DNA from: a virus
Virus record (IMG/VR): IMGVR_UViG_3300021400_000072
Strand: one strand, 5' to 3'
DNA length: 64,000 nt
The position numbers were made by a program, and so were the translations under genes. Below the pieces are notes generated by a model, which saw only the letters and a list, made by a program, of their open reading frames with translations, was not told the origin of the DNA and did not search any database. Positions 1 through 37,681 of the stretch are shown in pieces. Numbering within the stretch: the first letter of the stretch is position 1; the number at the start of each line of letters is the position of its first letter.

Positions 1-73
1 GCTCAGAACTAGACTTGAACTAGTAACGCGAGGATCTTCAGTCCTCCGCTCTACCCATTAAAACTATCTGAGC
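1..73 (-). tRNA. tRNA-Phe(GAA); 3' end at window edge
   Basis: Minus-sense cloverleaf: acceptor GCTCAGA/TCTGAGC, anticodon arm GAGGA-CTGAAGA-TCCTC, T-arm ACTAG-TTCAAGT-CTAGT. Confidence 0.7.
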
Positions 74-151
74 ATAACAAGACATATAATTTGTAAATAA
101 TGACTGTTTTTCAGACAGTTGTCTTAACCATTTGACTACATAAGCTAACGT

Positions 152-286
152 GCTTGTGACAGGATTCGAACCTGTAAACTTACAAAAGTAAGAAATTGCT
201 GTATATGTCTTTCATTTTATATTTATGTTGTGGATTCTTGATTTTATTTGATGTTGGTGCCTTATTCGCCTAAATCCACATAAGCC
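152..286 (-). ncRNA. tRNA-like element (T-arm ACAGG-TTCGAAT-CCTGT plus CTTAC-TTTT-GTAAG tetraloop hairpin); 5' end unresolved
   Basis: Canonical T-arm and 3' acceptor-like strand CACAAGC, but no canonical D or anticodon arm. Best 5' partner GCTTATG (280-286) leaves one mismatch and implies a ~60-nt insertion. Confidence 0.3.
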
Positions 287-291
287 AACAG

Positions 292-373
292 TAATTCTGG
301 TGGGATTCGAACCCACATGCCTTCTGACCACAGGGTTTGAGCCTGTTGCGTATACCAATTCCGCCACAGAATT
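292..373 (-). tRNA. tRNA-Leu(CAA), type II
   Basis: Acceptor AATTCTG/CAGAATT, anticodon stem ACAGG/CCTGT with loop CTCAAAC, 13-nt variable arm, T-arm GTGGG-TTCGAAT-CCCAC. Confidence 0.75.
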
Positions 374-401
374 ATATCCTGCTTACGCAGGAATTAAGAA
401 G

Positions 402-792
402 TAGAAGCGAAGGGATTCGAACCCTCAATCCTTGCGGTAACGGATTTTCTTACTACTCTATGTCACCATAGCCATCTTAAAGATGTTGTAGTCTGGACTA
501 TGTCTTTGCCATATTATTTCTAACTTAGGCAGATGGTATATAGTCTCTACACATTTATAAATAAAAAGGCTGTTTATCAAAATCCATTTAACTACAGCGT
601 TATACGAACTCGCCACTATCAAATTGGCTTCCTCAGTCTGTCGTAGCACCCTTTTATTTAATTTAGCTCGGCGTTCTCTTAGCTATTCGCCGAATTAGCC
701 ATCTCCACTTATATCATTTCTGATATAAGGCTCTCCTTTTATGTTTACTAAGAAAAAAGTCCGTCGTGTATACCAGTTCCACCACGCTTCCA
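402..792 (-). tRNA. tRNA-Leu(UAA) interrupted by a ~310-nt group I-like intron in the anticodon loop
   Basis: 5' exon GGAAGCG..ACGGA-CTT (785-757), 3' exon AAAA-TCCGT + long variable arm + T-arm GAGGG-TTCGAAT-CCCTT + CGCTTCT (441-402). The acceptor pairs with two wobbles. Spliced loop CTTAAAA gives anticodon UAA. Intron lies between U34 and A35, ends in G, and has P7-like AGACTA...TAGTC. Confidence 0.6.
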
Positions 793-885
793 TATAAATT
801 TAAACGGTTGTAAAGATAAAAATTTATTATTTTTCTATTTTAACAGGGAAAAATAATAAAAGCCTGCCTAACAACTTAATAATGA

Positions 886-1254
886 TTACTGCTCACGAGA
901 AGCAATAAACGCATCATACTCGTCCTTGAAGCACCAAGCAAATCCATAAGCCTTATGGGTCTTAGTTCTTCCATTCAAAGCATCACCGATGCCTGACTTG
1001 CCTTCTTGTCCAATTGCGGCAAGTGCTTCCTTCTGTGTTGCAAACTCTGCAATAACTGCATAAGTTTCGGGGTCAAGCTGAAGAACACCTGACTTATTCG
1101 GACTCTTACGCTTACGAGCGGCGGCCGCCTCATCTTCCTCAACACGAGCAAGTGCTTCTCTCAAGGTATCCAGAAGCTGCTCTCTGATACCTTCATTTAC
1201 ATCTGTTGCATTTTCAAAATAGAAAATCAAACCTTCAATCTGTTTCTTATCCAT
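886..1254 (-). CDS. hypothetical protein (122 aa)
   Basis: ORF with RBS AAAGGAG upstream of the ATG; minus-strand promoter TTGACA-N17-TATAAT at 1281-1325. Confidence 0.7.
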   Translation of the reverse strand: MDKKQIEGLIFYFENATDVNEGIREQLLDTLREALARVEEDEAAAARKRKSPNKSGVLQLDPETYAVIAEFATQKEALAAIGQEGKSGIGDALNGRTKTHKAYGFAWCFKDEYDAFIASREQ

Positions 1255-1280
1255 ATTTACTCCTTTTTACTCTTGTTTTT

Positions 1281-1325
1281 TAATTTCTATAAATATATTA
1301 TACTAAAAATTTTTTATTTTGTCAA
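1281..1325 (-). promoter_or_regulatory. sigma70-type promoter (TTGACA-N17-TATAAT) for gene 886..1254
   Basis: Minus-sense TTGACAaaataaaaaatttttagTATAAT. Confidence 0.6.
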
Positions 1326-1969
1326 CAATTGAATAACTTAATTATATCTATGAATAACACCCCTTCGGGTTGCTGGCAATAACCTTCTCTTATATTCGAC
1401 CACCAAGGAGACATACCTGAGCGGTTAGGAGCGACCTAAACGCTATATGCCCCATCTGTCTAAGACAGACAAATCTTGTAGAGGATTTTGCATACCTCTA
1501 ACTTTCAGCTACCTTTCAGAAAAGTATAAATAAGATTTACCATATCTTGTTTATCCAAATTTGTCTACGCACTTTTAGCCTACTCGTACCTTGACCCAAT
1601 CTTATACACGACTTCCGTCGCTTCATGTGCGCTAACCCCTTATGGAAATTCCAAGGTTTGCAAAGTTTTCCACGCTTCACCTAACTTGGATTAGTGCTCT
1701 CGTTAAAGAACCCTATATTATGGAGCCGATTGGAACAGTGTCTTTAAAAGCGATTACCCCAGTGCTATTGACTAAACCATTTCTTTAGACCTGGCGTTTT
1801 ATACGTCACCGCATAAAAACTTTTCTCCTAAGAAAGTATCCTTTCTTATTCTGGTTATTCGTAAAGCCAATACCTCAGCGTCATGGAATTGACGTTTATC
1901 ACTGAGTTGCTTCATAAATATAACTAAATTATTCAATTGTCAATGTTCTTTTGTTGGTAATCCAACGAA

Positions 1970-2042
1970 GGTCTTAGGTAAGGAATCGAACCTTACTTAT
2001 TCATCTCTTTTGAGAATCACATTACCTATATGTTACTAAGAC
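1970..2042 (-). ncRNA. tRNA-like gene with atypical anticodon arm (TCTC-AAAA-GAGA tetraloop)
   Basis: Perfect acceptor GTCTTAG/CTAAGAC, D-arm ACAT-ATAGGTA-ATGT, T-arm GTAAGG-TTCGATT-CCTTAC; 73 nt with no 7-nt anticodon loop. Confidence 0.45.
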
Positions 2043-2253
2043 GCCTATCTATGTATATCATCAGAAAGGAAGTGAATATAAAAAGGGATAAACCCATTTA
2101 TAACAATGCAAAGGGGAGTAGCGTGTAGCACTATCATCTAATGTTCTCCCTAGTTTTTGTTTTGGAATTTCGCCAAAAGGACTTATTTGATATATTGGAA
2201 AGTGCTTAATCTCGTAATCCATCACAGGGCTTATATGGTAGCCTGAACCTCGT

Positions 2254-2325
2254 AGCGGAGGTGGGATTCGAACCCACGTGATACGGCGTATGAGACCGCG
2301 CTGGTACCTCTCCAGTCCACTCCGC
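2254..2325 (-). tRNA. tRNA-Met(CAT) (Met, fMet or Ile2 type not distinguishable)
   Basis: Anticodon stem GCGGT/GCCGT with loop CTCATAC; T-arm GTGGG-TTCGAAT-CCCAC; acceptor GCGGAGT/CCTCCGC with a U-C mismatch at 7-66. Confidence 0.55.
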
Positions 2326-2418
2326 AATATTAATCAAGACAGTTTAAAATATAGCCTATTTAATCCCAAATTTAAATGCTTGTATTTTTTCTTTTGTTGC
2401 TGTTTCTGTCTTTCACTT

Positions 2419-2457
2419 TCTATAAATATTATAACAAAAAATTTTTTAAAAATCAAA
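2419..2457 (-). promoter_or_regulatory. conserved promoter repeat TTGATT-N17-TTATAAT upstream of tRNA-Met
   Basis: Plus strand ctataaatattataacaaaaaattttttaaaaatcaaat; its reverse complement is a sigma70-like -35/-10. Confidence 0.55.
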
Positions 2458-2649
2458 TACGGTATATGCATCTACCGTATTGGTCTATGAGGGCTACCAC
2501 TCCGCTTGCTATATCGTTTTTATCCTTCAGCTAGTTCTAGGGGCCAAGACATTTGTTCTCTTTTTGCAACAATAGCTTTCCGAACCTTAAAAAGTCAACC
2601 TACTTATATTAATATCATTGCCTAAGGTTATATTAATACTTTCAGTAAA

Positions 2650-2706
2650 TGCTCTATGTAGGAGTCGAACCTACACTCACAAAAGTAAGTTCCATCATAA
2701 TAGAGC
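2650..2706 (-). ncRNA. 57-nt tRNA-like mini-element (acceptor + T-arm + tetraloop hairpin, no D or anticodon arm)
   Basis: GCTCTAT / TATGATGGAA / CTTAC-TTTT-GTGAG / T / GTAGG-TTCGACT-CCTAC / ATAGAGC. Confidence 0.45.
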
Positions 2707-2785
2707 AGTCTCCTTTTATCTCTCTTATATTTTAAAAGAGCCAAAAAATAATGCTCTGAAAAGAGGAAAGATGATACGTATCAAG

Positions 2786-2859
2786 TAGCCCCTGGGGGAA
2801 TTGAACCCACCATCTTGACCTTGAAAGGGTCATATCCTGTCCTTTTAGAAGAAGGAGCC
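2786..2859 (-). tRNA. tRNA-Glu(TTC)
   Basis: Anticodon stem TGACC/GGTCA with loop CTTTCAA; T-arm GTGGG-TTCAATT-CCCCC; acceptor GGCTCCT/AGGGGCT with two G-U pairs. Confidence 0.55.
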
Positions 2860-2868
2860 ATATTTCTT

Positions 2869-2912
2869 TCACTTTCTATAAATATTATAATAAAAATTTT
2901 TTAAAAATGCAA
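2869..2912 (-). promoter_or_regulatory. promoter repeat TTGCAT-N17-TTATAAT
   Basis: ctataaatattataataaaaattttttaaaaatgcaaat. Confidence 0.55.
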
Positions 2913-3311
2913 ATAAAAATGGGAACTTATATTAACACTGTATCCCCTGATAGGTTTGCGCTAGCCTTATCTTACAGCGGGTTTTCCTAAGTCCAGTTTT
3001 CCTTGTCATTCCCATGCATTTATATACCGAGCGAGAACAGACGCGGTTATTGCGGCAATAAAAATTTTTTAAAAATGCAAACTTTTATCTTTATAACGTA
3101 TGACACTGCACCTAAAGTCATATTGACATACTTTATGTTAGGATTCTAAAAAATTTAGTATACATTAATTAATTAGCTATGGACGCATGTTTTCCTACCC
3201 TATTATAAAGATAAGTTGCGGGCTGGCGCCTTGCCCTAAACGGTTTTACGACCTCACCGTCTTAACGTCTACGTTTTGTCCATCAGGAGCGACCTGCTTT
3301 GCAGTAGCCAA

Positions 3312-3392
3312 TAGGGGACACGGGATTCGAACCCGCACGCACAAGGCACTAGATCCTAAGTCTAGGGTGGCTACCAGTTACACCAATCCCCC
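3312..3392 (-). tRNA. tRNA-Leu(TAG), type II
   Basis: Anticodon stem CTAGA/TCTAG with loop CTTAGGA; long variable arm; T-arm GCGGG-TTCGAAT-CCCGT; acceptor GGGGGAT/GTCCCCT. Confidence 0.65.
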
Positions 3393-3791
3393 ATATAAGA
3401 TAGATGCTTGCCAACGCTTTAGCCCCAGCTCGGGTATCTATCATACCCTACTCCCACAAACTTGGGATGCAGTAAGAGTTTCACCTGTATAACTCTGTAA
3501 AGATACTGTATCTTCTACGGCGTACAGTTCACTCACATTACCGGATTCTTTTAATCACTCCTAAAGAATCTAACTGGCTACATTTTAGCAGCTTAGATTT
3601 ACATTGGCGGAAGGTAAATCAACTTCCTCTTTTACTCAAATTTTGAAAATTTGAGATAGGTTGATCCTACACCTAAAGGACTTTTTCCAGTAACACCCCA
3701 AAAAGCAAAGCGGCTATCCTATCAACAGCTTAGATTTACACATTCAACCGAGTAGATTTACATATTAATAGGAAGGTAAATCAACTTCCTA

Positions 3792-3864
3792 ACGACCTAG
3801 TGGGGAATTGAACCCCAGTCTCTCGGGCGACAACCGAGTGTAATTACCTTTATACGACAAGGCC
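3792..3864 (-). tRNA. tRNA-Asp(GTC)
   Basis: Anticodon stem CTCGG/CCGAG with loop TTGTCGC; T-arm TGGGG-TTCAATT-CCCCA; acceptor has one mismatch. Confidence 0.55.
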
Positions 3865-4049
3865 AAACATTAAATAGCTTAGTCCATTTCTTAGGCTCCC
3901 TTCTCACTATAGCCTGAATTCCACAGGTCATGACTCCTGTTATTCTAGGTAGTTCACTATGGTCTCGCTCTCCCGACCGCCGTGATTTGGTGGACTCTCT
4001 TGATGTTTATGCGCACTATTAAATCAAGTCACCATTGCTATTTATGTAG

Positions 4050-4122
4050 CGGCCCCAGAAGGGTTCGAACCTTCGACATAACGGTTAACAGCCGTTCGCT
4101 CTGCCAACTGAGCTATAGGGCC
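4050..4122 (-). tRNA. tRNA-Asn(GTT)
   Basis: GGCCCTA-TA-GCTC-AGTTGGCA-GAGC-G-AACGG-CTGTTAA-CCGTT-ATGTC-GAAGG-TTCGAAC-CCTTC-TGGGGCC-G; clean cloverleaf. Confidence 0.85.
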
Positions 4123-4224
4123 AAATATGAGGGTTACTTTGCGTCTTTATATACCGTTTTCCACTAAAGCCACATATCTTATGCCGGTGGTAGTTTACCC
4201 TCAAAATCCATGATAACGGTTTAA

Positions 4225-4299
4225 TCATCCCTACAGGCTTTGAACCTGTGTTTCAAAATTGAGAATTTTGTGTCCTGAACCGAACTAGACGAAGGGACG
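4225..4299 (-). tRNA. tRNA-Glu(CTC)
   Basis: Anticodon stem CAAAA/TTTTG with loop TTCTCAA; T-arm ACAGG-TTCAAAG-CCTGT; acceptor CGTCCCT/AGGGATG. Confidence 0.6.
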
Positions 4300-4377
4300 A
4301 CAGTGCTTTTTCTGGCGTCACACTTTCCGCCTTGAGCCTGAGAACTTTTTAAAGGGAGTTTCTGAACTCATGCCGTT

Positions 4378-4557
4378 TTAACCCTCGTCCGCACGGACAT
4401 AATTTTCTGTTACTTCATAATGAAATCCAATCCAACCAAATCTATCTTCCAAAAATCTCACAGCAGAGAAGCCTTCAACAAACGTAATATGCTTCTGATT
4501 TACATCGTCAAGATACTCAACCATGTAGATAACAGCAGTTCTCTCATTCTTTCTCAT
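4378..4557 (-). CDS. small hypothetical protein (59 aa)
   Basis: ATG at 4557 with RBS AGGGGG 8 nt upstream; TAA at 4378; promoter repeat at 4612-4652 immediately upstream. Confidence 0.5.
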   Translation of the reverse strand: MRKNERTAVIYMVEYLDDVNQKHITFVEGFSAVRFLEDRFGWIGFHYEVTENYVRADEG

Positions 4558-4611
4558 AATAAAGACCCCCTGAAATGATATTTTTTAGTTTGTTTTTGTT
4601 TCTTTTTCTTA

Positions 4612-4652
4612 CGATATAAATATTATAACAAAAAATTTTTAAAAATTCAAAT
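4612..4652 (-). promoter_or_regulatory. promoter repeat TTGAAT-N17-TTATAAT
   Basis: acgatataaatattataacaaaaaatttttaaaaattcaaat. Confidence 0.55.
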
Positions 4653-4782
4653 AATATGCAGTGTGCTGTTACGCCAAAGGGAAGTCAGCCCTTACCAGTT
4701 ACGGGGTGGCCTTCTACTTCTATCATACGATAGTCCCACTCTTTAAAAGATGGATGCTTTTAATCCCACTTTCTACATATAA

Positions 4783-4853
4783 AGCCCCTCCCCGGATTTG
4801 AACCGAGATACAGTGATTACAAATCACTAGTGTTACCGTTACACCAAAGGGGC
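4783..4853 (-). tRNA. tRNA-Thr(TGT)
   Basis: D-stem GTGT/ACAC; anticodon stem AGTGA/TCACT with loop TTTGTAA; T-arm CTCGG-TTCAAAT-CCGGG; acceptor GCCCCTT/GAGGGGC. Confidence 0.7.
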
Positions 4854-5029
4854 ACGCGTACCGCCGCAGTGATTATAGAGATGCTTCGCGGTTTTCCTGG
4901 GTTTCATTCTCTTTTTTGTTAATTAACTTTATAAGCTATAGGTTGCTACCCCAGTCTAACGATGACCGACGACCTGTGAATTAAAGGTTTTAACAGGTTT
5001 TACTTACCTAATTATGCTACGAAAGCATA

Positions 5030-5103
5030 TGGACCACTAGGGATTTGAACCCTAATCTGACAGATTAAGAGTCTGCTATGTTAACCGTTAACACCAGTAA
5101 TCC
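5030..5103 (-). tRNA. tRNA-Lys(CTT)
   Basis: Anticodon stem GCAGA/TCTGT with loop CTCTTAA; T-arm TAGGG-TTCAAAT-CCCTA; acceptor GGATTAC/GTGGTCC with two G-U pairs. Confidence 0.55.
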
Positions 5104-5213
5104 AGGCTTATACAGCTACATACCTACTATATCAGGACATTACTCTGATTTTCTAAGTTTTTCTTAGTATGTTATGATTTTACATTATATAGTGTTATGG
5201 ACCCTGTATAACG

Positions 5214-5285
5214 TGCGTCCGGTGGGAGTTGAACCCACGATATACAGGTTAAAAGCCTGTTGCCATACCGCTTGGCTACGGACGC
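5214..5285 (-). tRNA. tRNA-Lys(TTT)
   Basis: GCGTCCG-TA-GCCA-AGCGGTA-TGGC-A-ACAGG-CTTTTAA-CCTGT-ATATC-GTGGG-TTCAACT-CCCAC-CGGACGC-A. Confidence 0.85.
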
Positions 5286-5346
5286 TTATTAAATTTTTAT
5301 AAATGCCCGTAGGCTTGCGTTTTCGTTTCATTTTTTATTCCCTCAC

Positions 5347-5392
5347 TTTGTATAAATATTATAACAAAAATTTTTTAAAAATTCAAATAAAA
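5347..5392 (-). promoter_or_regulatory. promoter repeat TTGAAT-N17-TTATAAT
   Basis: gtataaatattataacaaaaattttttaaaaattcaaat. Confidence 0.55.
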
Positions 5393-5508
5393 TTTGAAGG
5401 GTTGCATCGAAGATTCTTAGGTAGTCTTACAACGGATTGATTACCGACGCCCATGACGTGTCTCTCGTCCGTGTCCCATTTTTATTCTCTTCACAAATCT
5501 TATTTGAG

Positions 5509-5580
5509 AGCAGACAATGGGAATCGAACCCACATTTTTAGCTTGGCAAGCTAACATATTAACCGTTATATTATGCCTGC
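5509..5580 (-). tRNA. tRNA-Gly(GCC)
   Basis: Anticodon stem TTAGC/GCTAA with loop TTGCCAA; T-arm GTGGG-TTCGATT-CCCAT; acceptor GCAGGCA/TGTCTGC. Confidence 0.7.
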
Positions 5581-5810
5581 TTGAACTAGGATATATGGCC
5601 AACTTACCTAGATATATTTTAGCACCTTACCAGGCCGCCCTCATTTTAGTTACCATAAGCAATTGGCCGCGTGCTCACCAAGCCGCCGGATTGGGTTAAG
5701 TACCCAATAACTCCTTATTTTTCTTTCGTGAAATAAAGCAACCCGACTACGTTCTTTAACCTCTCGTAATAAAGAAGACCACCTCTTTCTAGCATCCTGT
5801 GGTCAGGGAC

Positions 5811-5882
5811 AGCCCCATGTGGGAATCGAACCCACCTATCTAGCTTGGAAGGCTAGCATTTTAGCCGATAAATCAATGGGAC
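5811..5882 (-). tRNA. tRNA-Gly(TCC)
   Basis: Anticodon stem CTAGC/GCTAG with loop CTTCCAA; D-stem ATTT/AAAT; T-arm GTGGG-TTCGATT-CCCAC; acceptor GTCCCAT/ATGGGGC. Confidence 0.7.
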
Positions 5883-5887
5883 AGATA

Positions 5888-5950
5888 TAAAAACTATTAA
5901 AGGTACGCTTTATGGGTGGAAGCGGCGCGTACTTGATTTTAATAGTTTTT
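5888..5950 (-). other. long leader hairpin between promoter 5953-5995 and tRNA-Gly(TCC)
   Basis: AAAACTATTAAA...TTTAATAGTTTT outer stem with inner GTACGC/GCGTAC stem. Confidence 0.4.
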
Positions 5951-5952
5951 AT

Positions 5953-5995
5953 TTGTTATGATAATATTATATCAAAAATTTTTGAATATTTCAAA
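5953..5995 (-). promoter_or_regulatory. promoter TTGAAA-N17-TATAAT
   Basis: Minus-sense TTGAAAtattcaaaaatttttgaTATAAT. Confidence 0.5.
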
Positions 5996-6008
5996 TTATT
6001 TTTGACCT

Positions 6009-6308
6009 TTATTTAGAAAAATAATATCTTCGCCAATACTTATAAAAATCTTTTAATGTAGGATAATCTTCTTGCCAAACAATACCATACATATTAGGAT
6101 GAAAATATTCAAATTTAGCATCTTTCCATGTCCATCTACTAATATAGTCATGTATATGCTATGTTTCAAAGACTTTTTTATAAGCATTTCCATTAGGAAG
6201 AATAATTTTACTACGTCTTATTCTTTTATTTGCTTGTCTTTTGTTTCGTTTAGGAATAGGCGTACGCCCATCTGTATAAACAGGATTCTTTTTATATGAA
6301 CGTGACAT
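6009..6308 (-). CDS. basic hypothetical protein (~99 aa) with one in-frame TAG
   Basis: ATG at 6308 with RBS AAAGGAG; ORF runs to TAA at 6009 through one TAG (absent from the ORF track for that reason). Likely cotranscribed with tRNA-Ile and the tRNA-Gln-like gene. Confidence 0.45.
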
Positions 6309-6323
6309 ATTTTTCTCCTTTGA

Positions 6324-6395
6324 TTGCGAGGGTAGGATTCGAACCTACAATCACCGGGTCAAAAACCGGCCGCTTTACCGTTAGCGTACCTCGCT
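6324..6395 (-). tRNA. tRNA-Gln(TTG)-like with 8-nt anticodon loop (TTTTTGAC) and unpaired A1:A72
   Basis: D-arm CGCT-AACGGTAA-AGCG; anticodon stem (G)CCGG/CCGG(T) enclosing 8 nt; T-arm GTAGG-TTCGAAT-CCTAC. Arm sequences resemble E. coli tRNA-Gln1 except for the loss of the position-39 nucleotide. Confidence 0.45.
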
Positions 6396-6517
6396 TACTT
6401 ATCATACCTTTTTATCTGTCTGAGAGTAGCTACCTCTCCCCATCTACTTACCACAATCCTTGATAATATTCTTTGATAAGCATAATACATGTTATATGAC
6501 GTCATTTTATGTATTAG

Positions 6518-6591
6518 TAGGGGACCTGGGACTCGAACCCAGGACACGCACCTTATAAGGATGCTGCTCTCACCTACTGAGCTAGTCCCCT
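6518..6591 (-). tRNA. tRNA-Ile(TAT)
   Basis: AGGGGAC-TA-GCTC-AGTAGGTGA-GAGC-A-GCATC-CTTATAA-GGTGC-GTGTC-CTGGG-TTCGAGT-CCCAG-GTCCCCT-A. Confidence 0.8.
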
Positions 6592-6616
6592 AAACGGGAT
6601 ATTTTTTATCCCTTAA

Positions 6617-6660
6617 CTTTATAATAATATTATAACAAAAAATTTTTAAAAATGCAAATT
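6617..6660 (-). promoter_or_regulatory. promoter repeat TTGCAT-N17-TTATAAT (for tRNA-Ile operon)
   Basis: tataataatattataacaaaaaatttttaaaaatgcaaat. Confidence 0.55.
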
Positions 6661-6665
6661 AATTT

Positions 6666-6953
6666 TTAACAAATCATAAATTTTCTATTGCGGGCTTCCC
6701 GATTAATCCATAACGTAAATCTATGACAATCGTTATAACTCCATTTCCACAAGAGTAGATTAGAATCTTTAAAATAATGAAAATCAAAAGCATGATAATC
6801 ATTTTTAAGTATTATTATATAATCAGTTAAACTGATATTAAGCATACGTGCGGGAAGCCACCAATAATTGCTACCGTGAGCCAAATCAGAAACATCTCCA
6901 GAATACCATTTTCCATTAGATTCCCACTCAGTATATTTCATAATATGGCTCAT
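6666..6953 (-). CDS. hypothetical protein (95 aa)
   Basis: ORF in a compact minus-strand series. Confidence 0.5.
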   Translation of the reverse strand: MSHIMKYTEWESNGKWYSGDVSDLAHGSNYWWLPARMLNISLTDYIIILKNDYHAFDFHYFKDSNLLLWKWSYNDCHRFTLWINREARNRKFMIC

Positions 6954-6962
6954 AATAACTCC

Positions 6963-7274
6963 TTATAGATTTAGGGCGGCAATTAAATCTGCAACATTCT
7001 GCTTCTCTTCTTCAGTTACTTCCGCAGGATTAACAGTTCTTTCTGTCGGGGTACCGAAAGCTGATGGAGCGGCCGCAGGTCCAAAAGCACTCTTTAATTC
7101 ACCTGAACCCATATTAGATTTTGCCGCAGTCAAAGTAACTTTAATTTCTACAACTCCACTACCTTCACTCATCGGAATACGAAGAATTTTACCTTCATCT
7201 TCCCAAAAAGCATCGGGATAAACACGTTTCAATTCCGCAAAAATTAAATTCTTACTCTCTGTGCCTTTTGCCAT
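6963..7274 (-). CDS. hypothetical protein (103 aa)
   Basis: ORF with RBS AAAGGAG; promoter-like TTGAAA..TATAAA at 7283-7330. Confidence 0.6.
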   Translation of the reverse strand: MAKGTESKNLIFAELKRVYPDAFWEDEGKILRIPMSEGSGVVEIKVTLTAAKSNMGSGELKSAFGPAAAPSAFGTPTERTVNPAEVTEEEKQNVADLIAALNL

Positions 7275-7355
7275 TTCATTTCTCCTTTATTTTATAAATA
7301 TATTTTACTAAAAATTTTCAATTTTTTCAAATCGGATATTTTTTTGATTTAATGA

Positions 7356-7928
7356 CTAACTTAATTCAATTATATTATCACAAATTTTACAAGAAGTAGG
7401 TTCTATCAAACATCTTCTACTACATCTTGACCGATATTCTCCAAATTGAGGAAGAATTGTACTATTAATTTCTTCTCCATCATAATTATAAATTATATCT
7501 TTTAATTTCCCATCCCATTTATGTTCTATTCCATAAATTTCATATAAAGTATTATACGCTTTATTTCCATTAATATCCACGAATTCAAACGTATCTATGA
7601 ATTGAGCATAATATGGTATATCTTCTGGACGAATAAAGAAATTTCTTATAGTGTCTATACTATCCCATTTTTTCTCACAATAATTGCAAAAACATCTTAG
7701 GCGGATTCCCTTTTTCTTAGTAAAATCCCTTGTAATTTTCATCATAAAAGCTAAATTTCCGCCAATTCTAATGTCTGTTACATTTAAAGAACAAAATCCA
7801 AGCAGATTTTCCCAATCACAGCAAATATATTGATAATAATGAGGAATGTTTAATGAATTGAATTTTTCTTCTATTTCTTTATTATAAATGACACTTCGTA
7901 CCGATATATTTGAATATATTTCCGCCAA
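7356..7928 (-). CDS. Cys-rich hypothetical protein (190 aa)
   Basis: ORF with multiple CxxC pairs. Confidence 0.5.
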   Translation of the reverse strand: MAEIYSNISVRSVIYNKEIEEKFNSLNIPHYYQYICCDWENLLGFCSLNVTDIRIGGNLAFMMKITRDFTKKKGIRLRCFCNYCEKKWDSIDTIRNFFIRPEDIPYYAQFIDTFEFVDINGNKAYNTLYEIYGIEHKWDGKLKDIIYNYDGEEINSTILPQFGEYRSRCSRRCLIEPTSCKICDNIIELS

Positions 7929-8130
7929 TGCACCTAAAATTGTAAAATCTTTTTCATCTAAAGGTACTGTTGTAATAATATTAATACGATAATCTTTATA
8001 TTCAGAAAGAAAATCATATAATTCTTTTATTTTAGGTTTATATATAATATTAATTTCTATTTTATCTTTATCGAAATATTTAAAGTTTCTATAAAATGGT
8101 ATCTAAAATTTCATTCTAATCCTATCCTCT

Positions 8131-8769
8131 CTACTCTCGGAATCCTGAAAAATCAATAATAATAGGATGACCATTTTTATATCCTACATTATCATAAGTT
8201 AAATCATCATTCCATTTAAGTTTTTTAATTAAAGTAAGAAACTCTTTAAACTTTTTTGGCCCATAATATTTTAATAAATCTATACACCAATCACTATTTA
8301 AATCATACCAACAATTAATTTTATGTAAAAAGGAATCCATTAATTCTCTTTTTTCTTTTGTTTTGTTATATGAGTTATTAAAAGGGGTACATTTTTCTTG
8401 AAGATAAATAGGATAATCATTAGCATAGCCAATAAAAATAGTTTCTGCAAAGCAATCTTTAAAAGGGGTAGAATAAATATTTTCATATCGTTCTACTTCT
8501 ACATTACAGTAATCCCATTCAAGTTCAGAGTTTGCACCAATAAAATTACAAAAACAATCTTCATAATATCCCTGGAAAGGAATTTTTATAACATAATCTT
8601 TATTACGTGGCATAATTACAAGTTTTGTTGCACCAAAATCATAATTAAAAATATACCCTTTATCAAAAAGATATAAAGTTAATTCATCTACTCTTGTATC
8701 ATCAAAAGTAGGATTAAAAAAATTAAAACCTTCAAACATATTAAGAATTTCATCTTCATTAAATGTCAT
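8131..8769 (-). CDS. hypothetical protein (212 aa)
   Basis: ORF; hairpin + T-run terminator at 8827-8868 upstream of the next unit. Confidence 0.55.
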   Translation of the reverse strand: MTFNEDEILNMFEGFNFFNPTFDDTRVDELTLYLFDKGYIFNYDFGATKLVIMPRNKDYVIKIPFQGYYEDCFCNFIGANSELEWDYCNVEVERYENIYSTPFKDCFAETIFIGYANDYPIYLQEKCTPFNNSYNKTKEKRELMDSFLHKINCWYDLNSDWCIDLLKYYGPKKFKEFLTLIKKLKWNDDLTYDNVGYKNGHPIIIDFSGFRE

Positions 8770-8868
8770 GTGTTATAATATTCTCCTTTTATTTTATATT
8801 TTTATTATAACAAAAAAAATAAAAAAAATCAAAGAGACCCCATAAAGGTATCTCTTTGATTTTTATAA

Positions 8869-9729
8869 TTAAATTTTAACAGCTTTACAACGGTTAAGAA
8901 CAGTTTGTTTTACACCATTATAAATCTGATGTTTCTTTACAGTTCCGGTAAGAAGAATAGTATCTCCTTTTTCAATGTCTTCATCAAGACCTGCGCCAGA
9001 GCAAAACCATGTAAGTACATTTTCACCCATTTTGAAAGTATACAGAATAGAAGTTCCATAATAACTTTCAACTGTGCGGGAACCTACAAGAGTAACATGA
9101 AGGTCTCTAAGACGTTCTTTCTCTTCTCCGATATATTCAGAGTTAGATTTTGGCATACATGCTTCTTTGGCGGCATCTGCTATTTCTTTAGCTTCATCCT
9201 TAATAAAGGCTTTCTTAATACGCCATTTCCAGTCAAAAACTTCATCAAAAGGAATAGAAGTCATTTTATATCCTGCGGGAACTTCTACGGGATGGGAAGC
9301 ATACCAGCCAAGATGAGGCTCAAAACGGCAACCAGCTTCTTTAAGAACATCCTTAATAGCATAAGTATCTCCAAGAATAAGCCAAACAAGAGGATTCTCT
9401 ACATCATAACCATTTTCCGCAAGGTAAATCCGCTTATTCTCCTCACTTGCAGCCTCCAGGCCAAGCATTTCTGCGGCTTTCTTTTCTGCTTTCCTCGTTT
9501 TTGCTTTTTCCTGATTAGCAACATACTTCTCATACTCCTCAGGAGTATAAGCCTTTACCCACTGACCCAGGCGGCCGCTACCATTACAACGGAAGCATGT
9601 ACCAAACCATGCGTAGACACCAGTCCCGCCACATCTATCACAAACTTCCTCAATATATGCTTTATGAGTGTTCTCATCTACCTTTTTAATAGTTGCATGC
9701 GCGTAAGAAGGGGCTACCATCCAAGTCAT
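8869..9729 (-). CDS. hypothetical protein with N-terminal zinc ribbon (286 aa)
   Basis: CDRCGGTG...CFRCNGSG motif. Confidence 0.55.
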   Translation of the reverse strand: MTWMVAPSYAHATIKKVDENTHKAYIEEVCDRCGGTGVYAWFGTCFRCNGSGRLGQWVKAYTPEEYEKYVANQEKAKTRKAEKKAAEMLGLEAASEENKRIYLAENGYDVENPLVWLILGDTYAIKDVLKEAGCRFEPHLGWYASHPVEVPAGYKMTSIPFDEVFDWKWRIKKAFIKDEAKEIADAAKEACMPKSNSEYIGEEKERLRDLHVTLVGSRTVESYYGTSILYTFKMGENVLTWFCSGAGLDEDIEKGDTILLTGTVKKHQIYNGVKQTVLNRCKAVKI

Positions 9730-9749
9730 ATTCTTTCTCCTTTTTCTGA

Positions 9750-9995
9750 TTAAACTCTGCGTTCTACTTCTCGTTTAATTCTTGCTTTGTCTTTTGCGGA
9801 AAGAGTGTCAAGATTAAGACCGTGTTTTGCGAGAATTTCCTCTTGCATATCATTAATATCATAATCTTTTCTTGCGTAAGTAACAAAATCATTAATTGCG
9901 GCATTTATCTTTGCCGTTTTAGTAGTTACCATATTATCCATTCCCGCAGATTCCATCATATAAAGACCATAAGGTGTACCAAACATTTTTTTCAT
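9750..9995 (-). CDS. hypothetical protein (81 aa)
   Basis: ORF preceded by an AT-rich promoter-like repeat at 10020-10050. Confidence 0.5.
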   Translation of the reverse strand: MKKMFGTPYGLYMMESAGMDNMVTTKTAKINAAINDFVTYARKDYDINDMQEEILAKHGLNLDTLSAKDKARIKREVERRV

Positions 9996-10048
9996 TTCCT
10001 TTCTTTCCTTATCTTTATATATATTATATAAAAAATTTTAAAAAAAAT

Positions 10049-10075
10049 AAAGGGGATGTATTACATCCCCTAAAT
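10049..10075 (-). terminator. intrinsic terminator after lysin gene
   Basis: GGGGATGTA-at-TACATCCCC stem followed (minus sense) by T8. Confidence 0.6.
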
Positions 10076-10076
10076 A

Positions 10077-11825: not shown

Positions 11826-11837
11826 TTATTGTCCTCC

Positions 11838-12593
11838 TTATAAATTAACATCACTTGAAATGTAATATCCTGTCATTTTATAAGTTTTACAGAATTTTTG
11901 AATACGTGCTTTAAGATTTGCGGAAGTTGTATATTCTAATAAAAATGTTTGCATTTTATGACGAAGAATTCGTTTCATGTGACTTTTATACCATGAGTGC
12001 ATATCTTTTTTCTGCTAACCGAATTTTCCCTTTCCGCTATAGCTTTTAATTAAACTATAAACTTCCTCTTGTGTAACACCATCTATAAATGTGATTGTTT
12101 TATGAGAAGAATCTTTATCCATAAGTTTATCTAAAAACTAACTTCCGCCATTTATCATTATATATTTAGTTTTATCTATTGCCCGTATTCTTTTTAAGAG
12201 AGTAATAATACCATTATACATTTCTGTACTTTTGTGATATTCATATACATCTAGGTTATCTAGCCACCAACCTTGAAATCCGCGGTTTTTTAGTTCTCTT
12301 GCTCTATATACAATAAAATCTCTAACTGCGGGTTTCCTTAAATCGAGATAATATTCATGGGGCCAGTCCTATAATTTACTAAGCCGATAGGGTTTTAATT
12401 GTTTATAATAACTTCTCTAATTAGAAATAGAGCCGGCAGATAAATACCCTAAAAGGGTATAACCCGCGGCTCTTAAATCCTAAATCTATTTATTTGTATA
12501 ATCCTATGGCTAAATAACTAAAATAGTTTTAGTTTTTGCTTTTCCTAATTTCTTAGGAGTAGCTTTTGTTGTTAACATAACAATATAATTCAT
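11838..12593 (-). CDS. glycoside hydrolase-like TIM-barrel (GH114-like); TAG-recoded
   Basis: Continuous frame from ATG 12593 to TAA 11838 with about 9 in-frame TAGs; motifs RGFQGWWLDNLDV and MINGG. Confidence 0.45.
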
Positions 12594-21729: not shown

Positions 21730-22128
21730 TTACTCTGCTTCATCGTCCGCAGGTTCAGCATCAGGGGCAACAAACTCGACCCCCTTAACAGCGTACAGAG
21801 TGCGCTTCTTGTAAACGTGTCTCTGTGCCTTGTCAGCCTTAATCAGCTGACCCAGGAGCGCACCCATCTTCTGCGGAGACAGGTCTGCCAGACGCTCGTC
21901 TGCCATAATATCTGCCATAGGCATGAACTCCTCTGCTTCCGCAAGAATCTCAAGGATGATACCCTTCAGAGTCTCGTTAACCTTCTGAGTCTTAGTCATG
22001 CCACCCTTGCTACTTCTCTTTGCAAGCTGTGCGGTCAGGGCGTTCAGACGCTCAACTGCTTCTGCGTTAGTGTCACCAATAGCGGTGATTGCGATTGCCA
22101 GTGCCTGTGCGTAAGTCATGTTAGTCAT
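21730..22128 (-). CDS. hypothetical protein (132 aa), paralog of 24880..25284
   Basis: Similar over the whole length to the product of 24880..25284; own promoter TTGACA-N17-TATAAT at 22160-22205 and tandem terminators at 21666-21725. Confidence 0.6.
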   Translation of the reverse strand: MTNMTYAQALAIAITAIGDTNAEAVERLNALTAQLAKRSSKGGMTKTQKVNETLKGIILEILAEAEEFMPMADIMADERLADLSPQKMGALLGQLIKADKAQRHVYKKRTLYAVKGVEFVAPDAEPADDEAE

Positions 22129-36931: not shown

Positions 36932-37555
36932 CTAGCCTTTTTTGTCTAAAAACATAGCTTTAACTGCTTTTGAGTCTGAATTATCAAGGCGGATTACTTG
37001 ATTAGCAGTAATATCGCCAGTTACATCACCAAAAATTACAACAACAGATTTTTCTCCATTTGCGGAAATGTCTCCCGTATGATTACCGTAAATAACAATA
37101 TTATCTGCTGTTACATCACCTGTTCTATCATTATTTACTTTAATTGTAGCAGGTTTCTTATCGGAATCATCGTTATAACTTCCGCATTTTCTCCACCATA
37201 TAGATTCAGAAGGAGGAGTAGATCCATTTAAGTTATCTGCGTCACATATGTAGACATAACCTTTATATCTAACTTTATCATATTTAGTATAAAGTTTATC
37301 TTTTTCCCAGTCTTTTATAAAAATATCATCTTTTTCATAATGTTCCACTCTTTTCCATTTAAGAGTAGCCCCTATGGGATAATAATTTGCATTAAAGTCA
37401 ATTAAAGATTTAAAAATCATTCCATCATATTCAACATAATCATCTTTGTTATAAATCTGATAATAATTATAAGGATAAACAACATGACCCTTATATGTTA
37501 ATACATTAGCCCCTTTAATCATTTCCATTTTTTCTTCCTTCCTTTTGCTTTTCAT
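36932..37555 (-). CDS. hypothetical protein with C-terminal beta-helical (bactofilin-like) repeats
   Basis: Repeats GDVTADNIVIYGNHTGDISANGEKSVVVIFGDVTGDITANQVIRL. Confidence 0.4.
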   Translation of the reverse strand: MKSKRKEEKMEMIKGANVLTYKGHVVYPYNYYQIYNKDDYVEYDGMIFKSLIDFNANYYPIGATLKWKRVEHYEKDDIFIKDWEKDKLYTKYDKVRYKGYVYICDADNLNGSTPPSESIWWRKCGSYNDDSDKKPATIKVNNDRTGDVTADNIVIYGNHTGDISANGEKSVVVIFGDVTGDITANQVIRLDNSDSKAVKAMFLDKKG

Positions 37556-37681
37556 TTTCTAAATATATTATATCAAAAAAATTTTAGAAAAACAAGTTAA
37601 TTTGTTATTTAAGCTACTTTGACTTATACAAAAAATTTTGATATACTAAAAATATAAGGTCAAGAAAGGAGAATCTTATAA

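What the first reader, a model, noticed from the sequence alone, without database searches (positions are those of the whole stretch)
1280..6660. tRNA island driven by multiple near-identical sigma70-like promoter repeats
The 40-45-bp repeat ctataaatattataacaaaaaattttttaaaaat(g/t)caaat recurs at 1281, 2419, 2869, 3058 (partial), 4612, 5347, 5953, 6617, and as variants at 7283, 10020, 15300, 25672, 33168 and 33228. Its reverse complement is TTGCAT-N17-TTATAAT plus a conserved ATTTATAG discriminator. Each copy sits just upstream (in minus sense) of one or two tRNAs or a small gene. This gives many independent strong early promoters, and these repeats are also potential recombination substrates.
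Basis: seen in the sequence. Interest (0 to 1): 0.5.

Follow-up and report, generated by a model that had tools for sequence, protein, structure and literature searches.

The report
Phage early promoters in stable-RNA island
The repeats are very probably ordinary strong promoters read by the host RNA polymerase, which a group of uncultured rumen and gut phages places before many early genes; here they sit densely in an island of tRNA genes that also holds the large ROOL RNA and an undescribed small RNA copying a piece of ribosomal RNA.

Summary
Seven full copies and one truncated copy of a ~45-nt motif lie on the minus strand between 1281 and 6660, and weaker copies occur across the early region. 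The motif is a textbook housekeeping promoter: TTGayT, exactly 17 bp, then TGnTATAAT. It also has a conserved T5-A6-T5 spacer and ATtTATAGAAAGT at the predicted start.

All copies are intergenic and point the same way as the downstream gene. Copies before protein genes have a ribosome-binding site and ATG 12-40 nt after the -10. The same motif occurs many times in at least 16 otherwise unrelated phage contigs, in phage phAss-1, and in similar form in T5-like phages.

So these are instances of a clade-wide promoter consensus, not recent duplications. Almost no terminators separate the island copies, so the units probably overlap rather than being independent. Evidence for cassette shuffling is weak.

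As a promoter finding this is ordinary. The island contents are more interesting:
- A full-length ROOL RNA.
- A tRNA-Leu with a probable group I intron.
- Two covariation-supported unknown RNAs.
- A 125-nt mimic of the 23S rRNA L11-binding domain, also found in about 79 other phage loci, unannotated in cultured phage genomes and absent from the papers I could search.

The parts
6617..6660 (-). Promoter copy P6657: TTGCAT (6657-6652), 17 bp, TGT-TATAAT (-10 at 6634-6629). It precedes tRNA-Ile(tat) by about 30 nt.
   Evidence: 37.1 bits
6517..6591 (-). tRNA-Ile (anticodon tat)
6324..6395 (-). tRNA with an 8-nt anticodon loop (ARAGORN reads 'tttg'); it resembles tRNA-Gln(UUG) and is kept in the close relative L011.
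   Evidence: (51.3 bits)
6009..6308 (-). 99-codon ORF with a ribosome-binding site and one in-frame TAG; no family match.
5953..5997 (-). Promoter copy P5994: TTGAAA-17-TGA-TATAAT. A very stable leader hairpin follows at 5883-5957.
   Evidence: 11/12 consensus matches, TG present; 32.4 bits; leader z = -7.4
5508..5882 (-). tRNA-Gly(tcc) at 5811-5882, a 230-nt spacer, and tRNA-Gly(gcc) at 5508-5580.
5390..5507 (-). 118-nt module directly upstream of P5386. It is absent from the close relative, but its 5' half is 90% identical to a stretch of an unrelated phage contig (L028).
5347..5389 (-). Promoter copy P5386: TTGAAT-17-TGT-TATAAT; the best-scoring copy.
   Evidence: 48.3 bits
4783..5285 (-). 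tRNA-Lys(ttt) at 5213-5285, tRNA-Lys(ctt) at 5029-5104 and tRNA-Thr(tgt) at 4783-4853, with spacers of 108 and 175 nt. The last 65 nt of the 175-nt spacer (4854-4918) are 94% identical to L014.
4657..4781 (-). RNA that mimics the 23S rRNA helix 42-44 domain (the GTPase-associated centre, where protein L11 binds). It fills the whole gap between tRNA-Thr and P4650.
   Evidence: (rRNA model hits, E 2e-4 to 3e-4)
4612..4653 (-). Promoter copy P4650: TTGAAT-17-TGT-TATAAT.
   Evidence: 44.6 bits
4390..4557 (-). Small ORF of about 56 aa; no family match.
4134..4222 (-). Element A: a ~90-nt conserved RNA with a pseudoknot, between tRNA-Glu(ctc) (4224-4300) and tRNA-Asn (4049-4122).
   Evidence: Compensatory changes in three helices were read by eye from the alignment.
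3866..4048 (-). Element B: a ~175-nt conserved structured RNA between tRNA-Asn and tRNA-Asp (3792-3865).
   Evidence: 97% of cells paired, 18 of 35 pairs with compensatory change; no Rfam match
3311..3393 (-). tRNA-Leu (tag)
3058..3085 (-). Truncated promoter copy (-35 and spacer, no -10) at the 3' end of a ~250-nt insertion that the close relative lacks.
2869..2915 (-). Promoter copy P2912: TTGCAT-17-TATAAT, without TG. It lies about 17 nt before tRNA-Glu(ttc) at 2785-2859.
   Evidence: 44.4 bits
2419..2481 (-). Terminator-like hairpin (2481-2456) fused to promoter copy P2457 (TTGATT-17-TGT-TATAAT). tRNA-Met (2252-2326) follows.
   Evidence: 45.8 bits; hairpin -12.6 kcal/mol
1338..1930 (-). 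ROOL RNA, full length. A weak tRNA-like sequence (1970-2041) precedes it, and its end abuts P1325.
   Evidence: RF03087, 280.6 bits against a threshold of 99.1
1281..1328 (-). Promoter copy P1325: TTGACA-17-TATAAT (12 of 12 consensus positions), before the 122-aa ORF at 886-1254.
   Evidence: (26.6 bits)
401..791 (-). tRNA-Leu(taa) interrupted in the anticodon loop by a 308-nt intron that looks like a group I intron.
   Evidence: RF00028, 31.5 bits, E 2e-6, below the threshold of 50; 84% identical to the L009 intron
37544..37668 (.). Back-to-back promoters at the junction of the early and late gene blocks: a family copy on the minus strand (37600-37544) and TTGACT-17-TGA-TATACT on the plus strand before the TAG-recoded late operon.

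Best explanation
The repeats are strong promoters of the bacterial housekeeping type (sigma70/sigmaA, extended -10), read by the RNA polymerase of a host in the Bacillota (Firmicutes). A clade of uncultured phages that read TAG as an amino acid places them before most early transcription units.

In this window, seven of them are packed into 5.4 kb, about one per 770 bp. They drive tRNA genes, ROOL and other small structured RNAs, plus three small ORFs.

The island copies are separated by almost no terminators. Transcription therefore probably starts at each copy and reads through the following units, so transcripts are nested and dosage rises downstream. The tRNAs would then act as punctuation: the tRNA-processing enzymes RNase P and RNase Z cut at their ends and release the RNAs lying between them.

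What is shown: the sequence features, geometry, genomic placement and conservation. What is inferred: polymerase recognition, start sites about 7-8 nt after the -10 (the A or G in TATAG), early timing, read-through and processing.
For: Geometry:
- In 41 copies from this window and 8 unrelated contigs, information content is near zero upstream of the -35.
- TTG is present in 41, 41 and 39 of 41 copies.
- The spacer is exactly 17 bp, and TG at -15/-14 is present in 37 of 41.
- The generic sigma70 scan ranks family members highest in 1-10500.

Placement:
- All 20 window hits are intergenic and co-oriented with the downstream gene.
- Protein-gene copies have a ribosome-binding site and start codon 12-40 nt after the -10.
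- tRNAs begin 17-94 nt after the predicted starts.

Conservation:
- The promoter sites are retained at syntenic positions in L011 (97% protein identity in the flanking gene) and L012 (71%).
- The motif occurs in several copies in each of 9 other viral contigs and 8 contigs binned to Bacillota genomes that share nothing else with the window.
- It also occurs in the published TAG-recoded phage phAss-1, as TTGACA-17-TGTGnTATAAT-ATnTATAGAAAGTGAG.

Host type:
- All 8 binned contigs belong to Bacillota.
- phAss-1 hosts are predicted to be Clostridia (PMC10607447).
- Enterococcus phage EF1 has TGTTATAAT...TATAGAAAGTTAAGGAGG promoters.

Precedent: T5-like phages have 32 strong host promoters, TTGCTw-17/18-TATAATA, with AT-rich surroundings (PMC3326045). 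One of them reads TTGCTT-TTTGCTAAAAATTTTGG-TATAAT-ATTTATATAG.

Temporal class: there are at least 17 copies on the minus-strand, mostly standard-code half, and only 2 weak ones in 26 kb of TAG-rich late genes.

In L004 a copy sits directly before ROOL. In L027 and L029 a copy sits directly before Element B.
Against: - There are no transcript 5' ends or polymerase-binding data.
- The host is unknown, and assigning phage contigs to genome bins is weak evidence of host.
- The logo is biased by how the copies were found: the profile came from the island copies, and the alignment was anchored on TATAAT.
- The spacer (T5-A6-T5) and the region around +1 are conserved far beyond what sigma contacts require. 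Something more than plain sigmaA recognition may act there.
- Three half-copies keep the -35 and spacer without a -10. That half might have a function of its own.
- Only 64 kb of a genome of about 140 kb was examined. A phage sigma factor or polymerase elsewhere is not excluded; none was found among 20 early proteins scanned.
Confidence: 0.85

Rival explanations
1. The motif is a specialised promoter class, not just a good sigmaA site. The invariant T5-A6-T5 spacer and the ATtTATAGAAAGT start region would be bound by a factor conserved in this phage clade, or by a host nucleoid protein. That factor would switch the early units on or off together, or make the host polymerase dependent on it. 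This overlaps with the main explanation rather than excluding it.
For: - The spacer and +1 positions carry about 1-1.6 bits each across unrelated phages, comparable to the hexamers.
- The start region is conserved even before tRNAs, where no ribosome-binding site is needed.
- Half-copies with only the -35 and spacer persist at 3058-3085 and twice at 33183-33274.
Against: - T5-like phages of Gram-negative hosts independently have an AAAAATTTT-containing spacer and ATTTATATAG after the -10. That points to generic selection for strong binding by the polymerase.
- No candidate factor was identified.
- The half-copy at 3058 lies at the end of an insertion and looks like a relic.
Confidence: 0.15
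2. The island is transcribed as one long precursor from a single upstream promoter, and the repeats act in the RNA as AU-rich processing or stability signals.
For: - Few terminators lie inside the island, so long precursors are plausible.
- The motif would be an unstructured AU-rich stretch of RNA.
Against: - The same motif, with the same 17-bp geometry, precedes many protein genes at promoter-to-ribosome-binding-site distance in this and unrelated phages.
- Conservation stops sharply at the -35.
- TTG, TG and TATAAT are the most invariant positions, which is not expected of an RNase site.
- The motif also heads units that follow clear terminators, at 10071-10051 and 8832.
Confidence: 0.03
3. 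The copies are chiefly junctions of shuffled cassettes. The repeats would be kept or spread by recombination that moves tRNA and small-RNA modules, and promoter activity would be secondary.
For: - A ~250-nt insertion specific to the window ends in a truncated copy.
- Modules of 118 nt (5390-5507) and 125 nt (4657-4781) lie directly upstream of copies and are each missing from one relative.
- Modules are shared in mosaic fashion among distant phages.
Against: - tRNA and promoter order is the same in the window, L011 and L012.
- The 175-nt insertion or deletion at 4854-5028 is not next to a copy.
- Island copies are no more alike than they are to copies in unrelated phages, 87% against 88%. That argues for selection towards a consensus, not gene conversion.
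Confidence: 0.05

Closest known systems
Strong early promoters of T5-like phages, which also carry a large tRNA gene region
   Same: - Many copies per genome of a host-polymerase promoter with a near-consensus -35 and -10 and 17-18 bp spacing.
- AT-rich spacer and +1 region: the reported consensus is TTGCTw-17/18-TATAATA (PMC3326045).
- One example reads TTGCTT-TTTGCTAAAAATTTTGG-TATAAT-ATTTATATAG, preceded by a terminator hairpin.
- 379 Salmonella and Escherichia phage records, those inspected being T5-like, match the consensus at about 77%.
- From my own knowledge: the T5 tRNA region is split into several promoter-driven units mixed with small ORFs.
   Different: The host is Gram-negative, and no phage relatedness was detected. 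Here the spacer is far more uniform (T5-A6-T5), TG at -15/-14 is nearly universal, and the phages read TAG as an amino acid.
SigmaA extended -10 (TGn, '-16 region') promoters of Bacillota and their phages
   Same: TGnTATAAT with TTGACA-like -35 at 17 bp. phAss-1 copies carry TGTGnTATAAT, which fits the TRTG -16 motif described for Bacillus subtilis (from my own knowledge). Enterococcus phage EF1 has TGTTATAAT followed by TATAGAAAGTTAAGGAGG.
   Different: Host promoters are not known to share the fixed spacer or the fixed transcribed start. Neither the host nor its sigmaA is identified here.
phAss-1 and NCBI's 'Caudoviricetes code 15 clade' (PMC10607447)
   Same: A gut phage of about 136 kb that reads TAG as glutamine, carries suppressor tRNAs, and has a tRNA island mixed with small ORFs. 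The same promoter family occurs several times in that island. Hosts are predicted to be Clostridia.
   Different: There is no nucleotide similarity beyond the motif. The paper does not mention promoters (0 occurrences) or ROOL.
ROOL and GOLLD RNAs in phage tRNA islands
   Same: A full-length ROOL lies inside a phage tRNA island. Co-transcription with tRNAs was already proposed (PMC5737381), and ROOL forms an RNA-only cage (PMC12286853).
   Different: This locus adds the likely promoters. ROOL lies about 490 nt downstream of P2457, after tRNA-Met. In L004 a family copy lies directly before ROOL.
23S rRNA GTPase-associated centre (helices 42-44, binding site of L11 and L10) and ribosomal-protein leader RNAs that mimic rRNA
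   Same: - The element at 4657-4781 reproduces the helix 43 sequence, its pairs and its U-U mismatch.
- It keeps the UUUAAAGA junction, the helix 44 loop GCGUAAnAGC, and a closing helix that covaries.
- This rRNA region binds L11 and the L10-L12 stalk (PMC1635324), and the ~60-nt fragment is studied as a separate folding unit (PMC6239185).
   Different: It is not part of an rRNA gene, and it lies in phage tRNA islands. It carries an insertion of 4-258 nt before the helix 44 part. No protein binding has been tested.
Theta (HDV-like) ribozymes next to tRNAs of recoded gut phages (PMC10879173)
   Same: Small structured RNAs placed directly after tRNA 3' ends in phages that read TAG as an amino acid.
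   Different: My rough descriptor for the HDV-like fold found none in this island, and Rfam gave no ribozyme match. The elements here have other folds.

Membership tests
sigma70/sigmaA housekeeping promoter, extended -10 class | -35 hexamer resembling TTGACA | tested here: met
   TTG in 41, 41 and 39 of 41 copies; A at position 4 in 36 of 41
sigma70/sigmaA housekeeping promoter, extended -10 class | -10 hexamer TATAAT at 17 +/- 1 bp from the -35 | tested here: met
   The spacer is 17 bp in all aligned copies. TATAAT was the alignment anchor, so its invariance is by construction.
sigma70/sigmaA housekeeping promoter, extended -10 class | TG at -15/-14 | tested here: met
   G at -14 in 37 of 41 and T at -15 in 41 of 41. 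Absent in P2912 and P1325.
sigma70/sigmaA housekeeping promoter, extended -10 class | Intergenic, co-oriented with and closely upstream of a gene | tested here: met
   All 20 window hits are intergenic; ribosome-binding site and start codon 12-40 nt after the -10 in protein-gene copies
sigma70/sigmaA housekeeping promoter, extended -10 class | Transcription starts there with host holoenzyme | not testable with these tools
   No transcript or biochemical data are available
Independent transcription units (one promoter and one terminator each) | An intrinsic terminator between successive promoters | tested here: not met
   Only 2481-2456 inside the island. Terminator-promoter fusions occur outside it, at 10071-10051 and 8832.
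ROOL RNA (RF03087) | Covariance-model score above the curated threshold, full length | tested here: met
   280.6 bits against 99.1, model positions 1-574 of 574. Also present in L004, L011, L012 and L013.
23S rRNA gene | The helix 43/44 sequence is embedded in a complete large-subunit rRNA | tested here: not met
   No rRNA gene in the window. 79 of 80 pattern hits lack the sarcin-ricin and peptidyl-transferase motifs and diverge after UUUAAAGAGU.
Mimic of the GTPase-associated centre (L11-binding domain) | Helix 43 stem-loop, helix 44 loop and closing helix kept through covariation | tested here: met
   The x-x' pair is Watson-Crick in 54 of 54 copies, with 4 pair types. The helix 44 motif is present in 42 of 54, against 0.06 per kb by chance. 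Closing-helix positions 2-9 (outward from the junction) are paired in 29-42 of 42 copies, above the largest value in 500 shuffles; position 1 is an invariant G-C pair.
Mimic of the GTPase-associated centre (L11-binding domain) | Binds L11, the L10-L12 stalk, or another ligand of that domain | not testable with these tools
   Needs biochemistry
Theta / HDV-like ribozyme | Nested double pseudoknot with a catalytic C, starting at a tRNA 3' end | tested here: inconclusive
   My own strict descriptor gave no credible hit in 1-7000. It is not the published descriptor.
RNase P RNA (considered for Element B) | Match to an RNase P covariance model | tested here: not met
   No RNase P hit even at E <= 10 on 3860-4055. 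The resemblance of AGAGAGUCCACC...AGAAAUGGAC to the P4 helix was recalled from memory only.
Group I intron in tRNA-Leu(UAA) | Intron in the anticodon loop, with the group I fold | tested here: inconclusive
   The position is met (ARAGORN places the intron at position 36, 308 nt). RF00028 scores 31.5 bits, E 2e-6, below the threshold of 50. The homologous stretch in L009 passes the threshold at 52.4 bits.

The most novel reading that the evidence does not exclude
The dense promoters are the engine of a phage island of stable RNAs aimed at the translation machinery. Besides tRNAs and ROOL, the island makes several undescribed structured RNAs that are released by tRNA processing.

The most striking is the 125-nt element at 4657-4781. 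It belongs to a widespread, unannotated phage RNA family that mimics the L11/L10-binding domain of 23S rRNA. There are 54 unique copies in viral contigs, and it occurs in cultured phages including pf16, GAP32, CBB and Aeromonas phage 4_4572.

Such an RNA could act as a decoy. It might soak up L11 or the L10-L12 stalk, which could blunt the L11-dependent stringent response (from memory). It might also absorb a toxin or antibiotic that targets this rRNA domain.
Probability: 0.35. Interest if true: 0.8.

Novelty: new member of a known kind. Interest (0 to 1): 0.4.

Why it matters
It gives a usable promoter consensus for a large group of uncultured rumen and gut phages of Bacillota that read TAG as an amino acid: aTTTGAyTTTTTAAAAAATTTTTGtTATAATATtTATAGAAAGT. 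Transcription units in these genomes can now be annotated.

In the relatives L011, L012 and L016, the TAG-suppressor tRNA sits behind a promoter of the same family as the early genes. The late operon also starts with a sigmaA-type promoter. Both points fit the published idea that the code switch is set at translation rather than at transcription.

It also supplies the likely promoters for ROOL, whose function is unknown. And it shows that the gaps between tRNAs in these islands are conserved structured RNAs, not junk, one of them being a mimic of a ribosomal RNA domain.

Tried and rejected
- Close relatives among deposited phage genomes: none. Only tRNA-sized matches were found.
- Fold stability of the inter-tRNA spacers: mostly unremarkable z-scores. 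Comparative evidence proved far more informative than folding energy.
- Element B as a miniature RNase P RNA: rejected as a membership claim, since there was no covariance-model hit at E <= 10.
- Theta/HDV-like ribozymes at tRNA 3' ends: none found with my descriptor.
- The rRNA-like element as a captured piece of host rDNA: rejected. There is no blastn match to E. coli 23S, 79 of 80 related loci are not rRNA genes, and the closing helix covaries.
- A phage sigma factor or RNA polymerase in the window: none among 20 early proteins scanned.
- A first fuzzy-regex scan timed out and was replaced by hexamer and profile scans.
- Literature searches for a phage mimic of the GTPase-associated centre found nothing relevant. 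The library is incomplete, so this does not prove novelty.

Full report
CONTEXT

The window has 33% G+C and comes from a tailed phage. On the plus strand, 37.7-64 kb holds structural genes: a capsid-like protein (phrog_2729) and an open frame of more than 2,849 codons that looks like a tape-measure protein. These frames are open only if TAG is read as an amino acid, with 5-84 in-frame TAGs per gene. The minus strand from 1 to 37.6 kb holds mostly standard-code genes and is presumably the early region.

A 142-kb IMG/VR contig (UViG_3300021399_000006; loci L001, L007 and L011) is an 87-92% identical relative.

THE OBSERVATION

All listed copies exist on the minus strand. Seven are full promoter-like copies, named here by the first base of the -35: 6657, 5994, 5386, 4650, 2912, 2456 and 1325. 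One copy (3058-3085) has only the -35 and spacer.

A 33-nt core matches 3 times at up to 3 mismatches, against 0 in 100 shuffles. A profile built from the seven copies also finds weaker copies:
- 7336-7279
- 8816-8782
- 10044-10002
- 15366-15311
- 22559-22504
- 25489-25437
- 25709-25677
- 37600-37544
- 37613-37668, a weak divergent one on the plus strand

The two copies near 33.2 kb are a tandem 60-nt repeat. They share only the upstream half of the motif and have no -10.

WHAT THE MOTIF IS

I aligned 41 copies from the window and eight unrelated contigs.
- Information content is near zero upstream of the -35, then rises abruptly.
- TTG is present in 41, 41 and 39 of 41 copies.
- The spacer is exactly 17 bp and reads T5-A6-T5.
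- TG at -15/-14 is present in 37 of 41.
- TATAAT follows (it was the alignment anchor), then ATtTATAGAAAGT.

This is the geometry of a sigma70/sigmaA extended -10 promoter.

Every window copy is intergenic and points toward the next gene. Copies before protein genes place a ribosome-binding site and start codon 12-40 nt after the -10. Copies in the island place a tRNA 17-94 nt after the predicted start.

The late region of 26 kb has only two weak copies. One is the likely operon promoter, TTGACT-17-TGATATACT.

THE MOTIF IS NOT A LOCAL REPEAT FAMILY

A pattern scan of viral contigs found it in ten loci from nine contigs. All but the close relative share nothing else with the window. Each has several copies, mostly before protein genes and tRNAs.

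A scan of genome bins found it in eight contigs, all assigned to Bacillota. These look like phage contigs: they have multiple copies and tRNA islands with a cta suppressor tRNA.

The published TAG-to-glutamine phage phAss-1 has the variant TTGACA-17-TGTGnTATAAT-ATnTATAGAAAGTGAG several times in its tRNA island. Its paper never mentions promoters.

The five best island copies are 87% identical to each other and 88% identical to copies in unrelated phages. Their likeness therefore reflects a shared optimum, not duplication.

Two cultured phages show similar promoters:
- Enterococcus phage EF1 has TGTTATAAT...TATAGAAAGTTAAGGAGG promoters.
- A T5-like phage has TTGCTT-TTTGCTAAAAATTTTGG-TATAAT-ATTTATATAG after a terminator. 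This matches the description of 32 strong host promoters with AT-rich surroundings in such phages (PMC3326045).

Generic selection for very strong polymerase binding is therefore the simplest reading of the conserved spacer and start region. A clade-specific factor is not excluded.

ISLAND MAP, IN THE DIRECTION OF TRANSCRIPTION

1. P6657, then tRNA-Ile(tat), a tRNA with an 8-nt anticodon loop, and a 99-codon ORF with one TAG.
2. P5994, then a leader hairpin, tRNA-Gly(tcc) and tRNA-Gly(gcc).
3. P5386, then tRNA-Lys(ttt), tRNA-Lys(ctt), tRNA-Thr and the 125-nt rRNA-like RNA.
4. P4650, then a small ORF, tRNA-Glu(ctc), Element A, tRNA-Asn, Element B, tRNA-Asp, tRNA-Leu(tag) and the truncated promoter copy.
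5. P2912, then tRNA-Glu(ttc) and a tRNA-like sequence.
6. A hairpin fused to P2457, then tRNA-Met, a tRNA-like sequence and ROOL.
7. P1325, then a 122-aa ORF, tRNA-Leu(taa) with its intron, tRNA-Leu(caa), a short tRNA-like sequence (81-145) and tRNA-Phe, which runs off the window.

Only one terminator-like hairpin lies inside the island, at 2481-2456. Its T-run is the -35 and spacer of P2457. Similar terminator-promoter fusions occur at 10071-10051 and 8832.

The island promoters are therefore tandem rather than insulated. I infer nested read-through transcripts that are cut at the tRNAs.

RECOMBINATION

L011 and L012 keep the same order of tRNAs, promoters and ROOL. L013 and L014 differ in order.

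Against L011, the window has three extra segments:
- 5390-5506, directly upstream of P5386.
- About 4854-5004, not next to any copy.
- About 3050-3311, which ends in the truncated copy.

L012 lacks 4655-4778, which lies directly upstream of P4650.

Some of these segments recur in distant phages. Modules do move, and promoter-proximal sites are used. But the evidence that the copies themselves are the recombination substrates rests on one truncated copy.

OTHER CONTENTS OF THE ISLAND

ROOL is full length, at 280.6 bits. ROOL near phage tRNA islands is already known (PMC5737381, PMC12286853). In L004 a family promoter directly precedes ROOL.

Element B (3866-4048) aligns with copies from six further contigs.
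- 97% of cells are paired.
- 18 of 35 pairs show compensatory change.
- Controls with the partners slid by 1-3 columns give 27-41% paired.
- There is no Rfam match.
- In L027 and L029 the element starts about 10 nt after a family -10.

Element A (4134-4222) is conserved in five other contigs and has interleaved, covarying helices. I read that covariation by eye.

THE rRNA-LIKE ELEMENT (4657-4781)

It first appeared as a sub-threshold hit to large-subunit rRNA models at helices 42-44, with E of 2e-4 to 3e-4.

A degenerate pattern for helix 43 plus the junction found 89 stretches in viral contigs. Only one of the 80 matches analysed is a real 23S gene.

The 54 unique copies share GGAxGUyGGC-UUARAAGCA-GCCAUCx'UUUAAAGAGU.
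- The x-x' pair is Watson-Crick in all 54, with all four pair types.
- 42 of the 54 then have CUUUGGCGUAAUAGCACAC after an insertion of 4-258 nt. This resembles the helix 44 loop and would occur by chance 0.06 times per kb.
- A flanking helix of 6-9 bp covaries: apart from the invariant junction G-C pair, its positions are paired in 29-42 of 42 copies, above the largest value seen in 500 shuffles.

Context and annotation:
- Of 20 loci scanned with Rfam, 18 have called tRNAs, all on the same strand as the element.
- No Rfam family covers it.
- It occurs unannotated in cultured phages, including pf16, GAP32, CBB, Serratia phage BF and Aeromonas phage 4_4572.

Five literature searches found no description. 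The rRNA region it copies binds L11 and the L10-L12 stalk (PMC1635324) and is studied as a ~60-nt folding unit (PMC6239185). What the phage RNA binds is untested.

VERDICT

The promoter reading is well supported by comparative evidence, with confidence 0.85, but it is not experimentally shown. The 'independent units' and 'recombination substrate' parts are weak.

As a promoter finding it is a new member of a known kind, and ordinary for large lytic phages. The region deserves attention mainly for what the promoters drive.

LIMITS
- There are no transcript data.
- The host is unknown.
- The logo is biased by how the copies were found.
- The structures of Element A and of the insertion in the rRNA mimic were not formally tested.
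- The statements on T5 transcription units, the Bacillus -16 motif and L11-dependent stringent signalling rest on my own knowledge.

Noticed in passing
window 4657-4781 (-); also L035-L113 and cultured phages (GAP32 289.5 kb, Aeromonas phage 4_4572 75.1 kb): A 125-nt RNA that mimics helices 42-44 of 23S rRNA, the domain that binds L11 and L10. There are 54 unique copies in viral contigs with covarying helices. Most of the copies whose surroundings I examined lie in tRNA islands. It is unannotated in cultured phage genomes, and no Rfam family or paper was found.
   Followed up: partly
window 3866-4048 (-): Element B: a ~175-nt structured RNA conserved in at least 8 phage contigs (18 of 35 pairs with compensatory change). 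There is no Rfam match, and in some phages it has its own family promoter.
   Followed up: partly
window 4134-4222 (-): Element A: a ~90-nt conserved RNA with interleaved (pseudoknot) helices, also in L006, L012, L013, L029 and L030. It shares ACCG...CGGUAUAUAAA with the start of the module at 2979-3048.
   Followed up: partly
window 1338-1930 (-): A full-length ROOL RNA (280.6 bits) inside the island, about 490 nt downstream of P2457. Its end abuts the next promoter.
   Followed up: yes
window 401-791 (-): tRNA-Leu(taa) split by a 308-nt intron that looks like a group I intron (RF00028, 31.5 bits, below threshold). The intron is absent in the close relatives L011 and L012 and present (378 nt) in L014.
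   Followed up: partly
window 6324-6395 (-): A tRNA with an 8-nt anticodon loop (UUUUUGAC; ARAGORN reads 'tttg'). It resembles tRNA-Gln(UUG) and is kept in L011. It could read a four-base codon, or it could be a variant related to the suppressor tRNA.
   Followed up: no
window 37682-64000 (+); 10080-12593 (-); 6009-6308 (-): TAG is read as an amino acid in the late structural genes (5-84 in-frame TAGs each) and in three early-strand genes. The cta suppressor tRNA is not in the window. In L011, L012 and L016 it lies further along the same island, behind a family promoter.
   Followed up: partly
window 33183-33274 (-): A tandem 60-nt repeat. Each unit has the promoter's -35 and spacer half fused to GGTGCAGGGATTGTCGA, with no -10. 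It could be a binding site or some other element.
   Followed up: no
window 22100-22560 (-): Three successive promoter-like sites. The first two are followed by G+C-rich stretches of 110-170 nt with no clear ORF, so they may be further small RNAs.
   Followed up: no
window 5390-5507, 4854-5028, 3050-3311, 4655-4778: The inter-tRNA modules are present or absent among close relatives, yet parts of them recur at 76-94% identity in distant phages (L014, L028). The pattern is a mosaic exchange of small-RNA modules.
   Followed up: partly
window 5286-5350 (-): After P5386 there is a ribosome-binding site and a 15-codon mini-ORF (MKRKRKPTGIYKNLI) before tRNA-Lys. L001 keeps the ribosome-binding site and at least the first ten codons.
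   Followed up: no
window 10051-10071, 8832-8860, 2456-2481 (-): Compact terminator-promoter fusions: the T-run after the hairpin is the -35 and spacer of the next promoter.
   Followed up: partly
L013 15848-16077: A short tmRNA-like hit (56.9 bits) inside a relative's tRNA island, next to its suppressor tRNA.
   Followed up: no
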